Origin: a bacterium
GTDB lineage: Bacteria > SAR324 > NAC60-12
Length of the DNA stretch: 21,277 nt
Direction of reading: 5' to 3'
NCBI GenBank assembly: GCA_965233585.1
Contig: CBDDTI010000548.1
Span: 1 to 21,277, forward strand
The first letter of the stretch is position 1; each line of letters opens with the position of its first letter. A model generated the notes under the pieces. It worked only from the letters and a program-made list of their open reading frames with translations, searched no databases and was not told the origin of the DNA. Below, piece by piece: positions 1 to 21,277 of this stretch. A program made the translations under genes and the position numbers.

Positions 1-17
1 CTAAACCCTAAAACCCT
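1..17 (+). repeat. Telomere-like (CCCTAAA)n remnant
   Basis: Window starts CTAAACCCTAAAACCCT, about 2.5 imperfect copies of CCCTAAA (TTTAGGG type, known from dinoflagellates and plants). Too short to prove a chromosome end. Confidence 0.4.
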
Positions 18-2479
18 ATTTCTTTCAATAAAGATCAAATTTGAAAAGAAACAATAATTATTGAAAATTCTATTAATTTGATGAAAAAAATAAAATTCAA
101 TTTTGAAATTCTTTCAAAAATAATCTGATATTAGAAACAAAAACAACAATTTTTTTTTTCATATTTTGATTATATTCAACATAAATTCAATAAAATTGAA
201 ATATTTTTTTAAATTAAAAACCAATATTTATAAATAGATATAAAAAATCCGATTCAATATATTTCAATATTAATCTTGATCATACATATTTATATCAAAT
301 CATTTTTCATAGAATTTTTCTTCTTGAAAAATTATTCAATATCAAATATATTTCCCGGAATATAAAAATAAAAATATTTTACTTTAGATAGACATAACCA
401 ATCAAAAAACCAATTAATATATTATATATTTATTCTTTTTGTTTTTCAAATTTTATATAAATTATTATTTATATATATATTTTTTCTCAATATCAAATTG
501 AATAGAAAACATATATAAATTTAGAATATCTAAATTCATTTCTTTATTTATTTAATATTTTTTATTTCTTCATTTTTCAATTTTATTATTTTTTGAAAAA
601 TCTATTTAATATATTTATATACAAAATATTTTTAACCAATATTATTTTCAGAAAAAAAATCAAAAATCATATTTATCAAAATTGAAAATTTTCAAAAAAT
701 AAATATTTTTTATTCTTTTTTCAAAATCAAAAAAATACATTTATTTTTATAACAAAACCTTTCCAACAAATAGAAACAATATCTATTTGTCATATCAATT
801 GACAAATATATCTAGATAAATATAATTGATTTTAGGAAAATTTGACATATTAAAATATAATAAATATATATATAGATTATATCTTCAAATTATTCTAAAT
901 TTGATCCAATCAATATTCTATATATATCATGAAAAAATTGCTTCATTTTAATTTTTAAATATATAATTGAAAAAAACAAATATTATATTGAAAATCAATT
1001 ACAGATTATATAAAAAATTATTTTTGATATTTCTTTAATTAAAAAAGAATATATTTTGGAATAAAATCAAATAAGAAAAAAAAATCATTTTTATATAAGA
1101 GAAAGAATCAATTTCAATATAAAAAAAAGGAATATTCTTCTTTCCCAATAAATTCGAAATATAAAAAAAATCAAATTTGATTTTAATATCTGAAAATATT
1201 CTTAAAATTATTCTTGATTTTTTGAATAATTTGAAATGGAATCGTTTTTTATTTTGAAATTATTTATAAACACACTTTCAAGAAAAATAATGAATTATTT
1301 CTTTTGATTCAAATCAAAAATTTATATATCAATTTTTTATATTAAATTTGAAAATCGATATTTCATTATTTTGAAAAATTTCAATTCTTCGATATGTCCA
1401 CAAATATTTTGAATATATTTCTTTTTTTCATTTATTCTAATTTAAGAAATAATTTTAAATAATTTATTTCTATATCAAAAAAATATAATGAATAATAAAA
1501 TATATATGTTTAATTATTTTATCCCGATATTAAAAAAAATCAAATAGAAAATTATTATTATTTTTTTTATATCAAATATTATATTTTATCTTTTTTTCTT
1601 CACCATAATTCAAAAATGAATTATTTTAAAATCACGAATAAATAAATAATAAAATAATTAATTTTAATTAATAATTTAAAAATAAATAAATAAATATATA
1701 TATGTAATTTTGATTTTTCTGAAAATTGGAGAAATCATGAAAAAATGATACCGGTATATATATATATATATTGAATATAATTTATTTTTTATTTATTTTT
1801 ATTATATAATTTAATATTTTTAATATATGTATATTAATTTTTTTCTCCAGAAATTATTCCTTCATAAAACAATTCTTTACCTCCATAAAAATCTTAAAAT
1901 TTCTCAACAAAATCATCAAATATAATAACTAAAAAACATACTTATTATTTCTATTTTAAAATCTATCTAATTTTAAAAATTTCATATATTTCTTAATATT
2001 CGGTATTTAAAAAATAATAACAATATTTTTTAAAAAATCACCACTCAAAAATTATGCGATAAACCTGAATATTCTTCTTCTTATTTCAAATAATGGAAAT
2101 AATAATATATTTTAAACTTAGTTTTTATTAGAATTAAATTATGATTATTTATATTATGTGAATGTTTCTAGATTCATTAGAATCTGATTATTCATCCGAT
2201 TCTTTCATTAGCTTTAATATTTTTATTTTCAACTCTTATTATTAAAATTGGAAATAATATAAACTAATTTAATATTATTAATATCTTTGAAAATATATTT
2301 TCAGAAATTACATATTTTTATATATATATATATGATTTTTTCAAATTAAAATAGCTATTATTATTAATCTTTTTTATATTATTATATTTAATAATAATAT
2401 AATTTTCCTTCATTAAAAAACAACAATTATTTTTTATTCATTAAATTTCTTAAATATATTCAATTATTTTTTTCCATTA
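18..2479. other. Extremely AT-rich non-coding tract with skewed dinucleotide composition
   Basis: No ORF in the track. G is rare and nearly always followed by A; C is mostly preceded by T. Sharp boundary at 2480. Similar sequence resumes at 3845-4140. Confidence 0.9.
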
Positions 2480-2481
2480 TA

Positions 2482-3842
2482 CGATCAGGCCGCCTGGTTC
2501 GCCGTCGGCTGGAAAGGCATTTTTCTCAGGGCAGCCAAGGCAGACCTGCCGATATTCTTTGATCGCCATCAGAACTGTTTTCAGCCCTGCCTGGCGGGGA
2601 AGCGCCGCTGCTGCCAAGACCTGTGCATTGGCAGCTTTGCCTTTCTTTCGATAACGTAGCATTTCCACCCTGAAAACAATACGATAACGTAGCATTTCCA
2701 CCCTGAAAACAAAGCGATAATGTATATCCACCGTCATTACAAAATAATAACGTAACATTTCCATCCTGAAAATAAAACGATAACGTAAAATTTCCACCCT
2801 GAAAACAAAACGATAACGTAACATTTCCACCCTGAAAACAAAACGATAACGTAACATTTCCACCCTGAACACAAAGCGAAAACGTAGTAGCATTTCCACC
2901 CTGAAAAGAAAGCTATAACATAGCATTTCCAACCGGAAAACAAAGCGATAGCGTAGCATTTCCACCCTGAAAAGAAAATGATAACGTAAATTTCCACCCT
3001 GAATACAAAGCGGCAACGTAGCATTTCCATCCTGAAAACAAACCGATAACGCAACATTTCCGCCCTGAAAACAAAACGATAACATAGCATTTCCAGCCCG
3101 AACGCAAAGCGATAACATAACATTTCCACCCTGAACACAAAGCGATAGCGTAGCATTTCCACCCTGAAAAGAAAGCTATAACATAGCATTTCCAACCTCA
3201 AAACAAAGCGATAACGTAAGATTTCCACCCTAAAAACAAAATAATAACGTAACATTTCCACCCTGAACACAAAGCGATAACGTAGCATTTCCACCCTGAA
3301 CACAAAACGATAACGTAGCATTTCGACCCTGCATACAAAGCGATAACGTAGCATTTCCACCCTGACAAGAAAGCTATAACATAGCATTTCCAACCTAAAA
3401 ACTTTCCATCCTAAAAACAAACCAATAACGTAACATTTCCGCCCTAAAAACAAAACGATAACGTAGCATTTCCATCCTGAACACAAAGCGATAACGTGGC
3501 ATTTCCTCCCTAAACACAAAACAATAATGTAGCATTTCGACCCTAAATACAAAATAATAACAAAGCATTTCCACCCTGAAAACAATACAATAACGTAAAA
3601 TTTCCATCCTAAAAACAAAACGATAACGTAAGATTTCCACCCTAAAATCAAGCGATAACGTAGCATTTCCACCCTAACACAAAGCAATCACGTCATGTTT
3701 ACAAGCAACAAAACGCGCGCGACAAGACGTCATTACGCCCTCCCCCACCTGATTCCCTCTCCAAACCTCTCTGTCACCCGACCTCCCACCCAAACGCAAA
3801 ATAAATGCATGTCAAGCGACGGCGAACCAGCCGGCCTAAGCG
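2482..3842. mobile_element. Non-autonomous TIR DNA transposon (MITE-like, TA-flanked), 1361 bp
   Basis: Left end CGATCAGGCCGCCTGGTTCGCCGTCG (2482-2507) is the reverse complement of right end CGACGGCGAACCAGCCGGCCTAAGCG (3817-3842) at 23/26. TA lies immediately outside both ends (2480-2481, 3843-3844) and both ends coincide with abrupt GC shifts. Confidence 0.8.
2649..3685. repeat. 33-bp minisatellite, about 31 units
   Basis: Consensus CGATAACGTAGCATTTCCACCCTGAAAACAAAG; produces the 11-aa RVEMLRYRFVF periodicity in the ORF track. Confidence 0.95.
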
Positions 3843-4142
3843 TATATATATATATATATTTTTTTCAAAATAAATTTATTCTAATTTATTTCGTAATGTC
3901 AAAAAATACCCAATTCATTTCTGCAATTTATAATATTTATATCATAATATAAATGTCCCAATATTAAATATTTCATATCATCATTATAATTTACATCATT
4001 TTCCCAAAAAAGCATTTTATAAATTATAGTGCTTATGTTTTTAAAAATTTCAAAAAATATTCGCATACATTAAATTATATTAATTAATTAAATATTTTTC
4101 AATTCCAAAATTCCATATAAACAATATATATCAATATTACTA

Positions 4143-4700
4143 TTCTCATCACCGTCTTCCTCCGATTTCAAATATAATTCTTAATCTTATTCTCTTCCTC
4201 CCCCTAAACCTCATCATCCTCAAAATACCTCATCTTCCGTAACATCAAATATTATCATCCTTTCATCGCCTTCCTCAAAATTCTCATCCTCATCACCATC
4301 GTCCTCCTTCTCAATATCATCTTCCTCCTCCTACTTCTCATTATCCTCAACCTCCACCTCATCTTCCGCAACATTAACATTATCATTGATATCATCCTTT
4401 TCATCATCATCCTCCAAATTATCATCCTCACCATCATCATCCACCTCCTTCTCAGCATCATCATCATCATCCACCTTATCAATTTCCATGTCATCTTCTG
4501 CTTTATCATCCTCATCTTCATCCTTATCCTCCTCAAAATCATCGTCCTCAACATCATCATCCTCAACCTCATCGTTCTGCCCCTCATCATCCTCCCGCAA
4601 ATCCTCAACACCATAATCCGGAACATTATTATTGGCATCATGCTCATCATCATCATCATGATCATGATCATCATCATCATCAACAACATTGTTGTACATT
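4143..4700. repeat. TCA/TCC low-complexity trinucleotide tract (reads as poly-D/E on minus strand)
   Basis: Runs of TCATCA/TCCTCC. All frames give homopolymeric peptides and the acidic frame is broken by a stop at 4331. Confidence 0.8.
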
Positions 4701-4829
4701 ACTTTCCCACTTCCCCAAACTGTCTGAGGTCTCTTGCTGGGATATCTTTTTAATATTTTTTGTTTTTGTTGTTGTTCTTGTTGGGACGGATATTAGTTAT
4801 TGATGTTGTTCTTTTATTTTTCCCCAGAC

Positions 4830-5330
4830 AATGTGCCCGCCCTGAAGGGTTCAACAACTCCACGACCAGTTTCATGTTTTTCAGATGATTTTGCACTTGA
4901 TTTTCATGAAATTTGCGGCGGTGTTGATGAATTTTTCAGCGGTGGAGAGCACAGCATGGGTGATGCAGTTAAATACAAGTTGCATACGTTGTCCAAGCTT
5001 GACGACTTCGAGCACTATCATCAGAGGGTTGCAGACCAATTTGCTTTCCACTTGTATGATGTTGTGAACTGTGAAGGTGCATGCAACAGGTTCAAACGTT
5101 TTGGAGACTTGCAGAAGCCTTACAAACGTTCAAAAGATTTTCAGTTGTGGAGCCTTTCGAAAACTGTGGACTGTTGCAGTGATTTTCAGATATCTTGCAA
5201 TGTACGTGCAGTTTCAGCTTGCAGGCATGTTGACATCATCTTGGATTCAGGTTCAGATGTGACTTTGATACCCATGTTCATGTCAGATGTTGGATGTCAG
5301 GCGCCACAAAACTCAGAAACATACCTCAGA
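4830..5330 (+). pseudogene. LTR-retrotransposon polyprotein fragment with aspartic protease active-site motif
   Basis: Frame of ORF 4800..5525 contains VDIILDSGSDVTLIP (D-S-G at 5244-5252), a retropepsin-type motif. Coding-like sequence is cut at about 5331 by an inserted repeat. Confidence 0.7.
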
Positions 5331-5731
5331 GAGCGACGGAGACGGAGGGACACCGGAGGGACACCGGAGGGACACGCCAGAGCGTACATCCGACCCCTTG
5401 GCAGTGCACATTGTCCCACGCCTGCCACGCAAAAGTGGCGGAGACCAAGGGACACCGGAGGGACACCGGAGGGACACCGGAAAGACGCCAGGGCGTACAT
5501 CCGACCCCTTGGCAGTGCACATTGAGTGAGTGAGAGTGAGAGTGAGTCAGTAGTGAGTGAGTGAGTGAGTGAGTGAGAGAGAGTGGGTGAGTGAGTGAGT
5601 GAGTGAATGAGTGAGTGAGTGAGTGAGAGTGAGTGAGTGAGTGAGGACGGGGAGGAGGACGGGAGGAGGACGGGAGGAGGAGGAGGAAGAAGAGGCGCGG
5701 AGACAGAACTAAAAACAAAAACCCCACACGT
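5331..5731 (+). mobile_element. Interspersed repeat, GGAGGGACACC/(GAGT)n family, copy 1 (3' tip missing)
   Basis: GGAGGGACACC 11-mers, duplicated GCGTACATCCGACCCCTTGGCAGTGCACATTG, (GAGT)n, GGA-rich tract, ending AAAAACAAAAACCCCACACG. Homologous to 6807-7027. Confidence 0.8.
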
Positions 5732-5750
5732 GACAGACTCTGCGTTCAGT

Positions 5751-6282
5751 AACTCAAAGCCAATTGTCGAAGCTCCAACCGAAATAGTTAAACGGCTGCA
5801 GCAATGGTACATGTGCCTGTGTTTGCGATGTCCAGACAAGACACCCGGTGAAAAGAAACTGTACAACTGCAAGAATCAAGTCAATGCAATAGGCGCACAC
5901 ACGGACTCTGCCTCATCCTGTAAACCGCAAACGCAATGGAGAGAGACAACTGCTGGTTAACGCAGAAATTCAATAACTCAAAGCCAATTGCCGAGGCTCT
6001 GACCGAAATAGTTACACGGCTGCAGCAATGGTACATGTGTCTGTGTTGGTGATGTCAAAAGAAGACAACCGGTGAAAAGAATCTGTCCAACAGTAAGAAT
6101 CCAGTCAATGCAATATTCACAGACACACAAGGACCCTGCCTCATCCTGTAAACCGCATACGCAATGGAGAGAGACAACTGCTGGTTAACGCAGAAATGGG
6201 AGTAACTCAAAGCCAATCGCCGAGGCTCCGACCGAAATAATTAAACCGCTGCAGCAATGGTACGTGTGGCTCTGTGTGTGTG
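5751..6282. repeat. Diverged ~225-bp tandem repeat, about 2.3 copies
   Basis: AACTCAAAGCCAAT...GAAATA.TTA.AC.GCTGCAGCAATGGTAC recurs at 5751, 5975 and 6204. Confidence 0.9.
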
Positions 6283-6806
6283 TAACATCTGGATAGATGT
6301 AAAACTTCCTTCTTTTTTCTTCCCTCTTCTCCCTTTTTCAAATAATGCAGGGGGACTGGAGCCGATTTGCCTATCCAGTCCAACGAAGCTATGGCATTTC
6401 GGTGGATGAGTGGTCTGATCAACCACTTGTACCTGCATCATTTTTTGCGTCGTAGATTAATTTGTTTCTCATCTAATTTGCATGTTGCAGGATTCAGTTC
6501 CTGCCGGATCAATACAATGATCCATTCTTATTTAGTGTGATTCCTATGGTGACTCCGACATGGTGCCATAGGGCCATTTGAGGCAACCCTGTTTGGGGTG
6601 AGTGTCGACTGACTTGAATACCGAATTCACACATTTTAATCTGGTAATTCGTCTAAGTAAAGTGCAACAGTTGGCCTTACCGTTGTGCACCTTTTCACAA
6701 AGTCCCGCCGATCCGGCTGTCCCAGGGTTCCTCGCCAATTTACCTTTCTATCAGAGTGAAAGCGGTCGAAACCTTCAGAAACCTCGTTTTCTCTGCAGCT
6801 TCAGCT

Positions 6807-7027
6807 ACACCGGAGGGACACTGGAGGGACGCCAGGGCGTACATCCGACCCCTTGGCAGTGCACATTGAGTGAGTGAGTGAGTGGGTGGGGGAGAGAGAG
6901 AGAATGAGTGAGTGAGTGAGTGAGGAGGAGGACGGGGAGGAAGACGGGAGGAGGACAGGAGGAGGAGGAGGAAGAGGCGCGGAGACAGAACTAAAAACAA
7001 AAACCCAACACGCCAATGTGGGGAAAA
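6807..7027 (+). mobile_element. Interspersed repeat, GGAGGGACACC/(GAGT)n family, copy 2 (shorter at 5' end)
   Basis: Same order of modules as 5331-5731; ends AAAACCCAACACGCCAATGTGGGGAAAAA (hairpin plus A run). Confidence 0.8.
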
Positions 7028-7580
7028 ACGCCCTATAAAATAGAAAACTGGGTTTGTAAGGCCTTAAGTTTGGTGTCGCTTTTGGATTTTTTCCCAAACC
7101 GGCTGGACACAAACCAGGTACCATTCTATAGTAAAACCTTGCCTACCAACTTGCCCACTATAGAATCGCATGCCCAGGTTCTGTATTCTATAGGGTTTAT
7201 TCCGAGGAAAATTTTTTAATCATATATTAACAATTATATGTTTGATCCTCCTGGTTTTTTTTGCTGATAATTCTATGATTTAGTTTTCCTGGCAGCATTT
7301 TTAATAGTAATGTTGGAATTTTAAGTATTATAGTTCCATACCGTTTTAGCAAGAGTTATAAAAAATTAACAGATCCATCCTTCCGCTTTTATTTACCATT
7401 TTTAAAACCGAACGTCATTGCTATGATGTTTTTCCAATCAATATTTAATATCTAGAAATTATTTTTCTCAAATTATATAATTTTTAATTTTCCCGGAATC
7501 CTTTTTCCAAAAAAAATCCAAGCAAAAAAAACAAAAATTAAATTAGACGACGGGTAATCTGCGCGTATAGAAGAATACAT

Positions 7581-8468
7581 TTTCTCCCGAGTGCGTAGCA
7601 AGGTTCCCATTTCACTCTGGGGGTCTAGGGGCGGAGGGAATCTTCGCTCGACGCTGCCTAACCGTCCGCAGCCGTTCGCGCAATCCCTGTATGCCGTGCC
7701 TATAGGAAATTCTGCAGAAGGGGCCATTTTTGGAGGCTTCAAATGTCGCGTTGCTTCGTTTCGCGCAGCATGCGTGGCACTTCGTGACGTTCAGACATAT
7801 TTCGTAACGCGTCGAAAATCGTTTTTTTATAGCAGGCGAATTCTTGACGACATTTTCAGACGATAAGTTCCAGTTTTCGTGGCAAGCCCAATACTTTAGA
7901 CGTAGTCGTCGTCAGTTGCGTGGGAGGCGCAGTGCTTTAGACTCTAGACGTGTCGTTCTACGTATTTTGTGTGAATCGCATTGTCAGGGGATCGTCGTCA
8001 TTTTGCGTGGTAGGCGCAGTCTTTTAGACGTGTCGTCTTGCATGTTTTAGGCGAATCGCATTGTCAGGGTTGCATCAAGTGGCGACAAGGTGCAAATTCC
8101 GTGGTAAATACGGCACTTTATGAGATATAATGAAATTTAACGGAAACTTCGTACGAAATATCAATTTTAAGGTAGCAAGTTTTCGAATTCCAAAAAAAAA
8201 TGTAGAAACATATTGGTTTTAAAGCAACAAAATACCAAAATTAATGGAAATTTCTCTCGCACGAAATGCTCGTTTTAATACTTCCATGTGTTTCATATCG
8301 CATCTCTGATTTTCCCGTCTCGCCGTATCTATGGGGGAAGTTGCAAAATTGCTCCTTTTCGAAGGCCTCCAAGCACGTTCTCATAACGTTTTGCGTAACA
8401 AAGGCGGTCCTTTATAAGATTCCAATTTATTGAATAATGGGTCGGAAGTCATTTTGCGTAATAAGCAC
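7581..8468 (-). mobile_element. Decayed interspersed repeat with GTGGCAGGCG-type motifs
   Basis: Degenerate versions of CGTGGCAGGCGCAGTACTTTAGAC (intact at 17762) at 7878, 8007, 8100 and 8457, and of GGAAGTCTCGCACGAAATGC (intact near 11515) near 8246. Minus-strand terminus GGAACCTTGCTACGCACTCGGGAGAAAA at 7580-7607. Confidence 0.65.
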
Positions 8469-8649
8469 CCTATATATATATATATTAAAATTTAGATGTT
8501 GAAAAAAAACTCGACGACAGTTGGCCCGAGAGCGAACAAGATGTTTTTCAAGCAGTTCTGAGTATGGTAGTCGTAAAAATAGTCGGTGAATGGTTGGTGA
8601 ATTTTATATGAGCTATGGAGGGATAAGGTGTGAAAAGTAAGATTGATTA

Positions 8650-8860
8650 AGAAGAGGAGAGAGAGAGAAAGGGAGAGGGAGAGGGAGAGCGAGAGCGAGA
8701 GCGAGAGGGAGAGGGAGAGGGAGAGGGAGAGGGAGAGCGAGAGCGAGCGCGAGAGGGAGAGGGAGAGGGAGAGGGAGAGGGAGAGGGAGAGGGGGGAGGG
8801 AGGGAGAGGGAGAGGGAGAGAGAGAAAGAGGGGAGAGAGAGAGAAACAAAGGGAGATAGA
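8650..8860. repeat. Polypurine (GAGAGG/GAGAGC)n microsatellite
   Basis: Direct reading. Confidence 0.95.
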
Positions 8861-8880
8861 AAGAACACATGAAGAAATAT

Positions 8881-9010
8881 AATGTGAGCAACAAAAGTGC
8901 ACAGGAGGCTCAGTACCATGATGCTACGAATGACATGTGTTATCTCATTTTACTGTGGTAATTCCCACGCACATTGCCGAAAAAGCTCGGTACCATCATT
9001 CCGTGGATGT
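8881..9010 (+). repeat. Degenerate repeat with GCTCRGTACCATGATGC motif (block 1)
   Basis: Motif at 8908 and 8985 (77 bp apart); homologous to 13355-13610. Confidence 0.7.
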
Positions 9011-9019
9011 CCAGAAACG

Positions 9020-9455
9020 AGACGCTTTTATACAGAGACGCTTTTACACACAGAAGCTTTTACACACAGACGCTTTTACACACAGGAGCTTTTGCACACA
9101 GACTCCTTTACACACAGACGCTTTTACACACAGCTGCTTTTACACACAGACGCTTTTACACACGGACACTTTTACACACAGACTCTTTTACACACAGACA
9201 CTTTTACACACAGACGCTTTTACACATAAAGGCTTTTACACACAGAAGCTTTTACACACAGACACTTTTACACAGAGACGTTTTTACACACAGACCCTTT
9301 TACACACAGACACATTTACACGCAGAAGCTTTTACACCAAGACGCTTTTCCACACAGAAGCTTTTACACACAGACTCTTGTACACACAGACTCTTTACAC
9401 ACAAAACCCGTTACACGCAGGCGCTTTTACAGGCCGACGCTTTTACAACACATAC
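9020..9455. repeat. 16-bp minisatellite (CTTTTACACACAGACG)n, array 1
   Basis: Direct reading; same unit as 13960-14560. Confidence 0.95.
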
Positions 9456-9810
9456 CAACAGGAAATGATGCTTTGAAATCGCAGTGAAACGTCGTGGCTC
9501 AGAAGTGCCAACCTTAGTGCACAGCACAGCGCTGGACACATTCCAGTAATTTGATTTACTCCAAGACCAAAAACATCCATCAAAAACTCAGGCCGGCACC
9601 AAACTGGCGCAAGAGCCACCTCGGAAATTTCAGATTGCACGATCATGCATATAGTTGTTCACTCGTACCAAGATGAGATCGTCTGTCATCGAGTTAGATC
9701 ACACAAAAACATGTAGATCAACACTTTTCAACTGTACAAACAGGCAGCAGTTGGCTACTGATTTTGCAGGTTCGCCACGAACAGTTTCTCCAGACGAATA
9801 GTGGTGCAAA

Positions 9811-10547
9811 TTAATTTCCGCCCGCCGCACTCAGTTCCATGTGCCACTCGGTACGCAAACCTTCCAGCTTCCACAAAGCCTCCAATTAAGACATAGGGGC
9901 GATTGTGCCAAGGGCGCAAGGAAGGTCTTTTCCCAAGCAGCAACTGGACGGCATCCTCTGCAGAGTAGTTGTAACCCACGACGAGCCAAGCACATCATAA
10001 AGCCCCAGCGCTTCGATCGATGCCTCCAAAGCAATGGAAGAGCACGTGCATGGATTCGCCCCTGGTCACTGCCAGCATGGATTGTTTCCAGAGTTGGCCA
10101 CAAACAATTTTCCACTGTTCCAAAAAGAGCTACCAAGTCAGGGATTCGTTCCTCCCAACGGTGCGGCGGCTTCAATGTCGTGTCCTCCAAGTGACACTTG
10201 ATGTGAAAGACTTTTTCTTGCGGGAAATACCGCGCCCAATCCTTCGGGGCGCCTCGAATCTCCATTTCATTTGCGCACATGGTCACCACCACGGTGACCT
10301 TCACCGACAGAGTCTTGAAAATGTCTTCCAAGCTACACGCCGCTTTGATGCTTCCAAGCAACACCGATGCTCGATCCGTAGGTTTGCAGATCATGGCAGC
10401 GTCCAACGGCCACTGTTCTATGGCATTGAAATTTTAAGGGTGCTGACAGGTAATGCGGTCCAGGTCATTCCAACATTCTTTGTCGGCGTAAGCCCTCCTG
10501 ATATCTTCCTCTCGCGCCGCTCTCCACTCGCGAGCGCTGGTGGTCAT
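9811..10547 (-). pseudogene. Dual-specificity protein phosphatase (PTP/DSP, CX5R) pseudogene, intronless
   Basis: Manual translation from ATG 10547 (context GCCACCATG): MTTSAREW...QHP*NF...VLLGSIKAA...VTVVVTMC...HIKCHLED...; frameshift in the A-run near 10122-10126; ...HVLFHCFGGIDRSAGAL*CAWLVVGYNYSAEDAVQLLLGKRPSLRPW...YV; apparent 4-bp insertion near 9886-9889; LEALWKLE...GGN* (stop 9811-9813). HCxxGxxRS at 10010-10036; in-frame stops at 10434-10436 and 9995-9997. Confidence 0.85.
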
Positions 10548-20504: not shown

Positions 20505-21277
20505 ATGCCACCACAAGCCGCACCGAAAGCTGCTGCGTCCCAAGCTCAAGCCTCTCAGCCTGCATCCCATGATGGGACCAGTTTGAAGGACTCATACATC
20601 CCTGTTTTTGATGGTCAGCCTAGTTCGTATCAAGAATGGAGAAAACGAATAGGAATCTACCATCTCAAAATGAAGTTGCAGAAACACACTGAAGAGAGCA
20701 TCCTGAACATCATTGGATTGTTGCAGGGCACAGCATGGAAACTTGTAGAAGGTTTTGATTTGGACAAGATCGACAAAGAAGGAACTTTTGATGATTTGAT
20801 GAAACTGCTTGACAATGCTTTCAGGTCTGACAGCAGGGTTCGACTTCCACAGGATTTTGATGCATACTTTTCTCACCTCTCCGGGAAACCAGGTGAGACG
20901 CTGCTGTCATACGTCACTGAGCATGACGAGAAGCTTCGAAAAGTTCAAGAACATGGAATTCAAATCCCTGACGAAGTCCAAGGATGGCTGTTGCTCAAAA
21001 AGTCCAACGTCACGAAGGAACAGAAACAGATGATCATCACCCAGGCACCGAAAATGGAAAAACTCAGGATCCAAGAAGCCGTGTACTTGATTCTTGGTCA
21101 AGATCATCGTTCTGCAGTTTCCCATGACCATCGACGACCTGGCTCTGGAAGACTTTTCCGCCGTGGAGCCTACACAGCTGCAGACCAATACGATGATGAT
21201 GATGATGACCACTATGACGTTGACGAAGAGGCCTACGTTGAGTATGAGTACGACCCTGAGTATATGGCCGCCAATGA
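20505..21277 (+). CDS. gag: Ty1/copia-like retrotransposon Gag (N-terminal part; runs off the window)
   Basis: Manually translated open frame of 257 codons, absent from the ORF track because it has no stop: MPPQAAPK...YIPVFDGQPSSYQEWRKRI...LQGTAWKLVE...KPGETLLSYVTEHDEKLRKV...IPDEVQGWLLLKKS. The P-x-FDG...Y..W start and the GET...Y...L...I segment match the copia Gag (UBN2/Retrotran_gag_2-like) layout. Confidence 0.85.
   Translation, partial: MPPQAAPKAAASQAQASQPASHDGTSLKDSYIPVFDGQPSSYQEWRKRIGIYHLKMKLQKHTEESILNIIGLLQGTAWKLVEGFDLDKIDKEGTFDDLMKLLDNAFRSDSRVRLPQDFDAYFSHLSGKPGETLLSYVTEHDEKLRKVQEHGIQIPDEVQGWLLLKKSNVTKEQKQMIITQAPKMEKLRIQEAVYLILGQDHRSAVSHDHRRPGSGRLFRRGAYTAADQYDDDDDDHYDVDEEAYVEYEYDPEYMAAN

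What the first reader, a model, noticed from the sequence alone, without database searches (positions are those of the whole stretch)
18..2479. AT-rich tract carries a context-specific cytosine-loss signature (TpC/GpA spared, GpC erased), unlike classical RIP
Seen: by hand count in 1-960, 34 of 39 Gs are followed by A, 2 by T, 2 by G, and 1 by C (position 940). Most Cs follow T. Further along, several CpG/CCGG sites also survive. Random AT-rich DNA would put A after G only about half the time. Established: Neurospora RIP depletes CpA/TpG, but TGA/TCA is the commonest surviving context here; APOBEC3A/B target TpC, the context that survives; AID prefers WRC. Inference: formerly GC-balanced DNA was saturated by a C>T process governed by the 5' base (purine-C hit, TpC spared), for example a GpC/RpC methyltransferase plus deamination or an AID-like deaminase acting as a RIP-like genome defence. 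I do not know of this being described in dinoflagellates.
Basis: partly seen in the sequence, partly recalled or inferred. Interest (0 to 1): 0.75.

Follow-up and report, generated by a model that had tools for sequence, protein, structure and literature searches.

The report
Odd base-context bias in subtelomeric AT tract
A 2.5-kb, 86% A+T, non-coding block next to a telomere-type repeat keeps its few G and C almost only where a pyrimidine run meets a purine run (TCA/TGA); this is real and looks like directional cytosine loss, but the agent is unknown.

Summary
The counts are right. In 18-2479 (13.5% GC), 89 of 115 G are followed by A and 141 of 217 C are preceded by T (p about 1e-13). The bias is confined to the tract.

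G/C persist at pyrimidine-to-purine junctions and are depleted at purine-to-pyrimidine steps. There is also a 3' effect and a 1.6-fold strand bias.

The tract has no ORF, Pfam or Rfam match, no periodicity and no satellite structure. In purine/pyrimidine space it is nearly as complex as ordinary DNA. A cytosine-loss model fits (deviance 2.2, 3 df). A gain model fits worse but is not rejected (7.45, p=0.059).

No progenitor was found in the window or in two copia families. Other repeats in the window show no C>T excess. The G rule fails in 3845-4140, where 0 of 9 G are followed by A.

Classical RIP, methyl-CpG decay and APOBEC3-type TC deamination do not fit. An AID-like purine-C preference does.

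A repeat-triggered genome defence is not shown. Genome-wide data and reads were out of reach.

The parts
1..17 (+). Telomere-type repeat CTAAACCCTAAAACCCT (CCCTAAA / CCCTAAAA units). It is in the orientation expected for a left chromosome end, and the AT tract abuts it directly.
   Evidence: Sequence read. CCCTAAA found at 6-12. TTTAGGG is the dinoflagellate telomere repeat according to PMC11508785 (passages). Whether the array continues beyond the window start is unknown.
18..2479 (.). Main AT-rich tract. It is 13.5% GC, non-coding and aperiodic. G/C are concentrated at pyrimidine-run to purine-run junctions (TCA/TGA, TTGAA/TTCAA).
   Evidence: Composition and dinucleotides. Trinucleotides and context profile. 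No periodicity or period 3. Longest stop-free frame 109 codons under table 4, no Pfam match. No Rfam match inside it. Run-geometry dependence.
2480..3844 (.). Insertion of a non-autonomous terminal-inverted-repeat element carrying a 33-bp minisatellite (2649-3693, about 31 copies). It is flanked by TA/TATA. GC is 42% and it is not AT-converted.
   Evidence: Inverted repeat I10, arms 2478-2507 and 3817-3846, 30 nt, 90% complementary. TRF array. Composition with CpG o/e 1.40 and GpC 1.40.
3845..4140 (.). Continuation of the AT-rich tract beyond the insertion (15% GC). Here all GA dinucleotides lie on the minus strand: C 36, G 9 on the plus strand.
   Evidence: TC 19, AC 5, CA 22, CT 3; G followed by T 5, C 4, A 0. 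One search gives the probability of 0 of 9.
4141..4699 (-). G-poor, triplet-periodic stretch that reads as an acidic (D/E-rich) open frame on the minus strand. It fades into the AT tract and forms the GC ramp between the tract and normal DNA.
   Evidence: ORF 4331-4792 minus. TRF periods 3, 15, 21, 27, 30. Sequence. GC 0.33-0.40 and GC skew -0.82. No Pfam match.
4812..5327 (+). Isolated fragment of a copia-type retrotransposon polyprotein (gag/protease part) with normal GC. It marks the end of the AT-shifted zone.
   Evidence: 81% identity to residues 473-644 of P0033 (1944 aa, PF07727). No other part of that protein is found in the window.

Best explanation
The tract is a non-coding block of about 2.76 kb (2462 + 296 nt, later split by a transposon) lying directly against a telomere-type repeat. 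I think it was driven from ordinary composition to about 86% A+T by C-to-T transitions on both strands.

The loss was context-dependent. It was slowest for a cytosine with a pyrimidine 5' and a purine 3' (Y-C-R, i.e. TCA/TGA and CpG) and fastest for R-C-Y (ACT/AGT, GpC). It was about 1.6 times faster for cytosines of the bottom strand, which is continuous with the G-rich telomere strand. The survivors therefore sit where a pyrimidine run meets a purine run.

Shown: the composition, the context rule, its confinement to the tract, the strand factor, the absence of coding, RNA or repeat structure, and that the tract predates the transposon.

Inferred: the direction of change (loss rather than gain) and the ancestral composition. 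The agent is also inferred: deamination of cytosine in DNA that is often single-stranded near the chromosome end, either spontaneous or by an enzyme with an AID-like purine-C preference. A repeat-triggered defence of the RIP kind is not required and is not shown.
For: - The context bias is highly significant and local.
- One R/Y rule explains all ten dinucleotide classes. S at YpR steps is kept (CA 1.20, TG 1.20, CG 1.18). S at RpY steps is lost (AC 0.49, GT 0.24, GC 0.39).
- C/(C+T) by context, plus strand then minus strand: Y-C-R 95/287 and 61/266; Y-C-Y 72/458 and 38/366; R-C-R 29/255 and 11/275; R-C-Y 21/287 and 5/266.
- An exponential-loss model with four rates and one strand factor fits these eight fractions: deviance 2.2, 3 df, p=0.53; rates 0.46, 1.07, 1.54, 1.98; strand factor 1.58.
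- A multiplicative gain model gives deviance 7.45 (p=0.059). The result is the same after masking 396 nt of microsatellite and homopolymer: 2.7 against 7.9, p=0.049.
- The tract stays complex in R/Y space: entropy 0.980 against 0.993, mean run 2.27 against 2.08. Transitions would leave this; slippage-born low-complexity DNA would not.
- G and C are interleaved at random (runs test z=-0.53), so both strands were affected throughout.
- The faster-losing strand is the lagging-strand template for a fork running to the end. This rests on established replication polarity, not on a test here.
- GC rises with distance from the telomere-type repeat once the insertion is removed: 12-16%, then 15%, then 33-40%, then about 50%.
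Against: - No progenitor or paralogue was found, so the direction of change is not observed. The best R/Y match to the rest of the window is 26 nt against 23-28 in 30 surrogates. BLAST gives 71.8 bits against 62-72 in 10 surrogates.
- R/Y codon-class matches to 8 of 32 proteins of one copia family and 8 of 12 of another are at noise level. The first family scores 28.7 bits against 24.2-32.7. The second scores 28.2 bits, reached by 2 of 40 permutations, and is a 12-codon hit on a (TA)n run.
- The gain model is not formally rejected (p=0.059).
- The context effect reaches -2/-3 and depends on run lengths. The G fraction at the first purine of a run rises from 0.03-0.05 to 0.33. That is more than a nearest-neighbour enzyme preference predicts.
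- The G rule fails in 3845-4140 (0 of 9).
- Other repeats in the window show no transition excess or purine-C bias: C>T 43, T>C 46, transversions 96. C>T per opportunity is 5'A 18/136, 5'G 10/115, 5'T 11/112, 5'C 4/77.
- This is one tract from one assembly, and no reads were seen.
Confidence: 0.4

Rival explanations
1. The tract is an intrinsically AT-rich functional or structural element of the chromosome end: a subtelomeric spacer, an anchoring site, or a short AT-rich centromere of the kind seen in Plasmodium. It is held at its composition by selection or local mutation bias. On this view G/C at T-run to A-run junctions reflect an equilibrium of neighbour-dependent mutation or avoidance of TpA steps, not a one-way decay.
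For: - Size (2.46 kb, or 2.76 kb without the insertion), extreme A+T and the position next to a telomere-type repeat.
- TpA is under-represented (0.78). TTAA (46) is rarer than AATT (77), while TTGAA plus TTCAA make 40.
- Context dependence on run lengths out to -3 suits a structural property.
- A P. vivax centromere fragment of 2211 bp contains a highly AT-rich part (PMC6924662, one passage).
- One end of dinoflagellate chromosomes meets the extranuclear spindle at the nuclear envelope (PMC11508785, abstract start and passages).
Against: - No internal repeat domain: only two weak TRF arrays, 1067-1129 and 1794-1844.
- No preferred spacing of GAA/TTC motifs: largest z is 3.0 among 90 tests.
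- No periodicity.
- The loss model fits better than the additive or multiplicative equilibrium-like models: deviance 2.2 against 5.6-7.5.
- A transposon sits in the middle of the tract, which argues against strong constraint.
- The chromosome-scale Symbiodinium paper reports GC rising toward chromosome ends. The term 'AT-rich' occurs 0 times in its text (PMC8110479, passages).
Confidence: 0.25
2. A dedicated genome-defence system, RIP-like and using an AID-like deaminase or a purine-C methyltransferase plus deamination, recognised this DNA as a repeat or invader and hypermutated it.
For: - Purine-C is depleted and pyrimidine-C is kept, as for AID's WRC hotspot and SYC coldspot (PMC5391955).
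- There is a sharp contrast with the unmutated transposon inside the tract and the normal-GC copia fragment 670 nt away.
- The tract is complex in R/Y space.
Against: - No repeated progenitor was found.
- Young repeats in the same window are untouched. These include arrays of 302 nt x3.5 at 97% and 260 nt x3 at 99%, with a balanced substitution spectrum.
- The rate differences between contexts are only about 4-fold.
- There are no strand-coordinated clusters.
- No enzyme candidate could be searched for.
- Full-text searches found no report of RIP in dinoflagellates. One search found 5 papers holding both terms, 4 listed, read as listing only. Searches were also read as listings only.
Confidence: 0.12
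3. The G/C are newcomers, not survivors. T-to-C (A-to-G) changes, or base-calling errors, at modified thymines (5-hydroxymethyluracil) in an almost pure A+T tract create C before A or C, and G after T or G.
For: - In C. cohnii, 5hmU preferentially replaces T in the dinucleotides TA and TC. In A. carterae it is enriched in repeats (PMC11572971, passages).
- In the tract, C is followed by A (o/e 1.20) or C (1.36) more than by T (0.71). The mirror holds for G: TG 1.20, GG 1.86, AG 0.67.
- The gain model is not rejected at 5% (p=0.059).
Against: - The strongest effect, T rather than A 5' of C (141 against 46), is not predicted by the known 5hmU contexts.
- The ratio of plus- to minus-strand fractions changes with context, from 1.4 to 3.8. 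A simple gain process with a strand factor does not predict that.
- It leaves unexplained why a complex, aperiodic 2.5-kb A+T sequence exists at all.
Confidence: 0.08
4. The tract is an artefact: a contaminant, a chimeric join or a mis-assembled low-quality read end.
For: - It lies at the very start of the window, after only 17 nt of telomere-type repeat.
- Its composition differs from the rest of the window by more than 30 points of GC.
- No read-level data were available.
Against: - The tract is interrupted by a GC-normal transposon with intact inverted ends and resumes on the other side.
- It grades through a triplet-repeat zone into retrotransposon sequence on the same contig.
- It has no long ORFs, as an AT-rich bacterial or organellar contaminant would have.
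- It has no DNA match in the phage or plasmid collections.
- The highly ordered context rule is not what random read junk gives.
Confidence: 0.08

Closest known systems
RIP-mutated AT-rich blocks of ascomycete fungi (Neurospora-type repeat-induced point mutation)
   Same: A sharply AT-shifted, non-coding block in a GC-balanced genome. It stays complex rather than low-complexity and is best modelled as C-to-T loss on both strands.
   Different: - The context is opposite: CpA/TpG are kept (o/e 1.20 each), TpA/ApT is 0.75 and (CpA+TpG)/(ApC+GpT) is 2.97. The RIP preference and index thresholds are recalled, not taken from a call.
- No duplicated partner was found.
- Other repeats are unaffected.
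- The lineage is different: the telomere repeat is the plant/dinoflagellate type, not the fungal type.
AID-type cytosine deamination (WRC hotspot, SYC coldspot)
   Same: Cytosines after a purine are depleted and cytosines after a pyrimidine are kept (AC 0.49, GC 0.39 against TC 1.50, CC 1.36). The motif definition comes from PMC5391955. The strand bias points to single-stranded DNA.
   Different: - AID is a vertebrate enzyme acting on transcribed immunoglobulin loci.
- Here the rate contrast is only about 2-3-fold for the 5' base.
- The context reaches -3 and depends on run length.
- There are no strand-coordinated clusters.
- No enzyme is known for this organism.
APOBEC3A/B (TC) and methyl-CpG deamination
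   Same: Both are C-to-T processes that shape repeats and AT content.
   Different: Their targets are exactly what survives here: TpC o/e 1.50, TCA is the commonest C trinucleotide (72 of 217), and CpG o/e is 1.18 with two CCGG sites.
Short, extremely AT-rich centromeres of Plasmodium
   Same: An alveolate precedent for a block of about 2-2.5 kb of extreme A+T in a chromosome (PMC6924662, one passage). The size matches 2.46-2.76 kb here.
   Different: - Plasmodium centromeres are internal and contain a repetitive subdomain. This tract is terminal and has no such domain.
- No functional evidence of any kind is available here.

Membership tests
Neurospora-type RIP product | Mutation of CpA to TpA, leaving CpA/TpG depleted and TpA enriched | tested here: not met
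   CA o/e 1.20, TG 1.20, TA 0.78. TpA/ApT is 0.75 and (CpA+TpG)/(ApC+GpT) is 2.97. The thresholds are recalled.
Neurospora-type RIP product | The target is a duplicated sequence, so a partner or progenitor copy exists | tested here: inconclusive
   No R/Y-space partner in the 21-kb window or in two copia families. The genome itself could not be searched.
Neurospora-type RIP product | Other repeats of the genome carry the same signature | tested here: not met
   Eleven tandem arrays in the window give C>T 43, T>C 46, transversions 96, with no context bias. This is a small sample from the window only.
AID/APOBEC-like deaminase footprint | Loss of C in a fixed 5' context (WRC for AID) with sparing of SYC/YC | tested here: met
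   C/(C+T) is 0.33 and 0.16 after a pyrimidine against 0.11 and 0.07 after a purine on the plus strand. The order is the same on the minus strand. The -2 position is uninformative in 86% A+T DNA.
AID/APOBEC-like deaminase footprint | Strand-coordinated clusters of C>T or G>A | tested here: not met
   G and C are interleaved at random: 147 runs against 151.3 expected, z=-0.53.
AID/APOBEC-like deaminase footprint | A deaminase gene is present in the genome | not testable with these tools
Methyl-CpG deamination | CpG depletion with TpG/CpA excess | tested here: not met
   CpG 12 observed against 10.1 expected (o/e 1.18), plus two CCGG sites.
Short AT-rich regional centromere (Plasmodium type) | A 2-2.5 kb block of extreme A+T | tested here: met
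   2462 nt at 86.5% A+T, or 2758 nt without the insertion. This is a resemblance only.
Short AT-rich regional centromere (Plasmodium type) | One per chromosome, bound by centromeric histone or kinetochore proteins | not testable with these tools
   Needs the whole assembly and ChIP data.
Short AT-rich regional centromere (Plasmodium type) | An internal repetitive subdomain | tested here: not met
   Only two weak tandem arrays (scores 66 and 67) and no periodicity.

The most novel reading that the evidence does not exclude
A dinoflagellate-type genome carries a cytosine-deamination process with a purine-C (AID-like, R-C-Y) preference and a bias for the strand that is single-stranded during replication or transcription toward the telomere. 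This process can convert kilobases of ordinary DNA at a chromosome end into about 86% A+T. It would be the first RIP-like hypermutation outside fungi, and it would have the opposite context rule. The AT-rich blocks it makes next to telomeres could then serve as the long-sought attachment (centromere-like) sites of these chromosomes.
Probability: 0.12. Interest if true: 0.8.

Novelty: new variant of a known kind. Interest (0 to 1): 0.5.

Why it matters
If the loss reading holds genome-wide, it identifies a mutational process in these algae that nobody has described. Its context rule is the inverse of both RIP and APOBEC. It also gives a simple sequence test, the Y-C-R rule with a strand bias that should flip at the other chromosome end.

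It would also single out discrete, extremely AT-rich blocks beside telomeres. These would be candidates for the unknown chromosome-attachment sites of nucleosome-poor dinoflagellate chromosomes.

If it does not hold, the tract is one odd subtelomeric spacer of little general interest.

Tried and rejected
Coding origin:
- Stop-to-stop frames under tables 4 and 6 give no more than 109 and 251 codons inside the tract. They overlap in many frames.
- 0 Pfam families for 6 of them.
- No period-3 signal.

RNA genes:
- Rfam at E<=1 gives 3 weak snoRNA-like hits. All lie at 4537-4680, outside the tract and below gathering score.

Decayed satellite or telomere array:
- No dominant period. G/C spacing is near random.

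Binding-site array:
- No preferred GAA/TTC spacing.
- The TTGAA core of the Euplotes breakage signal came to mind (recalled). With 18 TTGAA and 22 TTCAA and no fixed distance to the telomere-type repeat, I did not pursue it.

Progenitor in R/Y space:
- Window against tract: negative.
- Codon classes against 8 of 32 proteins of the copia family at 20466: negative.
- Codon classes against 8 of 12 proteins of the copia family at 4812: negative.
- Positive controls scored 176 and 280 bits.
- A 28.6-bit hit of 3845-4811 lies in the acidic triplet zone, ending near window 4285. It aligns to the K/G-rich low-complexity part of P0033. I read it as a purine-codon artefact.

The adjacent copia fragment as the unmutated end of a hypermutated element:
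- The first 472 residues of P0033 find nothing upstream, in letters or in R/Y space.

Mutation spectrum of the 33-bp satellite inside the inserted element:
- G>A is seen at CGT (6), AGC (11) and TGA (6). The copies are not independent and too few to use.

Foreign DNA:
- No match in the phage or plasmid collections.
- The bacterial and archaeal contig collection was not scanned, because an exact-pattern scan has no power for this question.

Taxon:
- The dinoflagellate origin therefore rests on the telomere-type repeat and on unnamed ENA and EukProt homologues only.

Full report
**What is there.** The window opens with 17 nt of telomere-type repeat (CTAAACCCTAAAACCCT). It then runs straight into 2462 nt of 13.5% GC (18-2479).

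At 2480-3844 a GC-normal element (42% GC) interrupts the tract. It has 30-nt inverted ends (90% complementary, flanked by TA/TATA) and a 33-bp minisatellite of about 31 copies.

The AT-rich DNA resumes at 3845-4140 (15% GC). It grades through a G-poor, triplet-periodic stretch that reads as an acidic frame on the minus strand (4141-4699). Ordinary 45-50% GC sequence follows. That sequence begins with an isolated fragment of a copia-type polyprotein at 4812-5327, 81% identical to residues 473-644 of P0033.

The rest of the window is a patchwork of tandem arrays and a second copia-like gag at 20466-21275. Its search gave 32 hits, 10 of them carrying PF00665.

So the tract is older than the transposon inside it. 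Without that insertion it is a block of about 2.76 kb at a probable chromosome end.

- Over 18-2479, 89 of 115 G are followed by A (p=8e-14 against 43% A) and 141 of 217 C are preceded by T.
- GA and TC are over-represented (1.80, 1.50). GT, AC and GC are under-represented (0.24, 0.49, 0.39).
- CpG is not depleted (12 against 10.1 expected) and two CCGG sites are present.
- The index (GA+TC)/(GT+AC) is 2.6-8.1 in the tract and near 1 elsewhere, apart from three skewed stretches.

**Corrections to the description.**

- There is also a 3' effect. The trinucleotide counts are TCA 72, TCT 51, ACA 27, ACT 8 and TGA 45, AGA 28, TGT 8, AGT 1.
- 'GpC erased' rests on 4 against 10 expected (P=0.027).
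- In 3845-4140 the rule holds for C but not for G: 0 of 9 G are followed by A. In that segment all GA dinucleotides lie on the minus strand, as in the acidic triplet zone it fades into.

**A simpler statement of the rule.** In purine/pyrimidine terms, G/C are present at pyrimidine-to-purine steps (CA 1.20, TG 1.20, CG 1.18). They are absent at purine-to-pyrimidine steps (AC, GT, GC).

- The fraction of pyrimidines that are C falls in the order Y-C-R 0.33, Y-C-Y 0.16, R-C-R 0.11, R-C-Y 0.07 on the plus strand.
- On the minus strand the order is the same: 0.23, 0.10, 0.04, 0.02.
- The effect grows with the length of the flanking runs. The first purine of a run is G in 3-5% of cases when the run is one base long. 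It is G in 33% of cases when three or more pyrimidines precede a run of two or more purines.
- This one rule explains both the surviving CpG/CCGG and the missing GpC.

**What the tract is not.**

- It is not coding. The longest stop-free frames are 109 codons (table 4) and 251 codons (table 6), they overlap, 0 of 6 have a Pfam match, and there is no period 3.
- It holds no Rfam family.
- It is not a decayed satellite or telomere array. There is no dominant period and G/C spacing is near random.
- It has no motif-spacing structure.
- It has no relatives in the phage or plasmid collections.
- In R/Y space it is almost as complex as ordinary DNA of the window: 6-mer entropy 0.980 against 0.993 +/- 0.001, mean run 2.27 against 2.08.

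**Loss or gain.** Transitions preserve the R/Y class of every base, so the R/Y context of a site does not change while C decays to T.

- A model in which C is lost exponentially, with one rate per R/Y context and one strand factor, fits the eight observed fractions well. Deviance is 2.2 on 3 df. The rates are 0.46, 1.07, 1.54 and 1.98 for a starting fraction of 0.5. The strand factor is 1.58.
- A multiplicative gain model fits worse (7.45, p=0.059) and a logistic-additive model gives 5.6.
- Masking 396 nt of microsatellite and homopolymer does not change this: 2.7 against 7.9.
- G and C are interleaved at random (z=-0.53), so both strands were affected along the whole tract.
- The strand that lost more cytosine is the one continuous with the G-rich telomere strand. 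By established replication polarity this is the lagging-strand template of a fork running to the end. By recall, it is also the non-template strand of telomere-directed transcription.

These points favour directional cytosine loss in DNA that is often single-stranded. The preference is modest and the direction is inferred, not observed.

**The search for a progenitor.** It was negative, but it could only be narrow.

- In R/Y space the tract matches nothing in the remaining 18 kb beyond chance: 26 nt against 23-28, and 71.8 bits against 62-72.
- I reduced codons to their eight R/Y classes and compared all six frames with proteins of the two copia families present in the window.
- The method recovers the known copia pieces at 176 and 280 bits.
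- The tract scores 28.7 bits against permutation maxima of 24-33, and 28.2 bits reached by 2 of 40 permutations. The second is a 12-codon hit on a (TA)n run.
- The missing 472 N-terminal residues of the adjacent copia fragment are not hidden in the tract.

**Is it a genome defence?** Nothing in the window says so.

- Eleven tandem arrays were examined, including 302-nt and 260-nt units at 97-99% identity.
- They show C>T 43, T>C 46 and transversions 96.
- C>T per opportunity is 18/136 after A, 10/115 after G, 11/112 after T and 4/77 after C.
- The inserted element and the copia fragment 670 nt away are unmutated.
- The rate contrast between contexts is about 4-fold, far from an on/off enzyme specificity.

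**Comparison with known systems.**

- Neurospora-type RIP is excluded as a family by its defining context: (CpA+TpG)/(ApC+GpT) is 2.97 and TpA/ApT is 0.75 (thresholds recalled).
- Methyl-CpG decay is excluded by the intact CpG.
- APOBEC3A/B-type TC deamination is excluded because TC, and TCA in particular, is what survives. By recall, the same argument excludes UV damage at dipyrimidines.
- The nearest described specificity is AID's WRC hotspot and SYC coldspot (PMC5391955, passages). By recall, alkylation-type C>T at C-pyrimidine resembles the 3' effect.
- 5-hydroxymethyluracil in dinoflagellates prefers TA and TC (PMC11572971, passages). This fits the 3' neighbours of C if the G/C were gained or mis-called at modified T. 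It does not explain the dominant 5' T.
- As an object, the tract also resembles the 2-2.5 kb extremely AT-rich centromeres of Plasmodium (PMC6924662, one passage). Dinoflagellate chromosomes contact the spindle through one end at the nuclear envelope (PMC11508785, abstract start and passages). That reading rests on size, composition and position only.

**Literature.**

- Full-text searches for RIP with dinoflagellates found 5 papers holding both terms, 4 listed.
- Searches for Symbiodiniaceae with AT-rich or deaminase, dinoflagellate telomere or AT-rich assemblies, centromere or low GC and telomere-to-telomere Symbiodiniaceae were also run.
- None of the listings showed a paper describing such tracts or such a signature. 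I read these as listings only.
- The chromosome-scale Symbiodinium paper reports GC rising toward chromosome ends and never uses 'AT-rich' (PMC8110479, passages).
- Preprint supplements were closed and could bear on this.

**Limits.**

- This is one tract from one assembly, and no reads were seen.
- The organism is not confirmed. The telomere-type repeat and unnamed ENA and EukProt homologues fit a dinoflagellate. 

**Verdict.** Directional, context- and strand-dependent cytosine loss is the best single explanation (0.4). The enzyme, the RIP-like trigger and the generality are open.

Noticed in passing
window 2480-3844: A non-autonomous terminal-inverted-repeat transposon sits inside the AT tract. 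Its arms are 30 nt and 90% complementary, flanked by TA or TATA. Its interior is a 33-bp minisatellite of about 31 copies whose unit contains a telomere-like CCCTGAAAA/CCCTAAAAA. CCCTAAA occurs 5 times inside it.
   Followed up: partly
window 4141-4699 (minus strand): A G-poor stretch with triplet periodicity (periods 3, 15, 21, 27, 30) reads as an acidic D/E-rich open frame from an ATG at 4699. It continues in the same frame past a TAG at 4331-4333 and then decays into the AT tract. It has no Pfam match.
   Followed up: partly
window 4812-5327 (plus strand): An isolated 172-residue piece of a copia-type polyprotein (gag/protease region with a DSGS motif). It is 81% identical to residues 473-644 of a 1944-aa protein that carries PF07727 and stands for 151 member sequences. 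The rest of the element is absent from the window.
   Followed up: yes
window 20466-21275 (plus strand): Gag region of a second, unrelated copia-like retrotransposon that runs off the window end. It has 32 homologues at E<=1e-3, the best at 67% identity, and 10 carry the integrase core PF00665. Pfam finds nothing in the gag part itself.
   Followed up: partly
window 5300-20000: The rest of the window is almost wall-to-wall tandem arrays. TRF gives 68 rows with periods from 3 to 302 nt. Examples are 16-nt units x27 and x38, a 5-nt unit x93 and a 4-nt unit x107. Many have extreme strand skew, with GC skew up to +/-0.65 in 500-nt windows.
   Followed up: no
window 1749-1758 and 2000-2006: The few GC-rich islets in the tract are partly palindromic or recurrent. 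ATACCGGTAT occurs at 1749-1758, and CGGTAT occurs three times counting both strands, against about 0 expected from dinucleotide shuffles.
   Followed up: no
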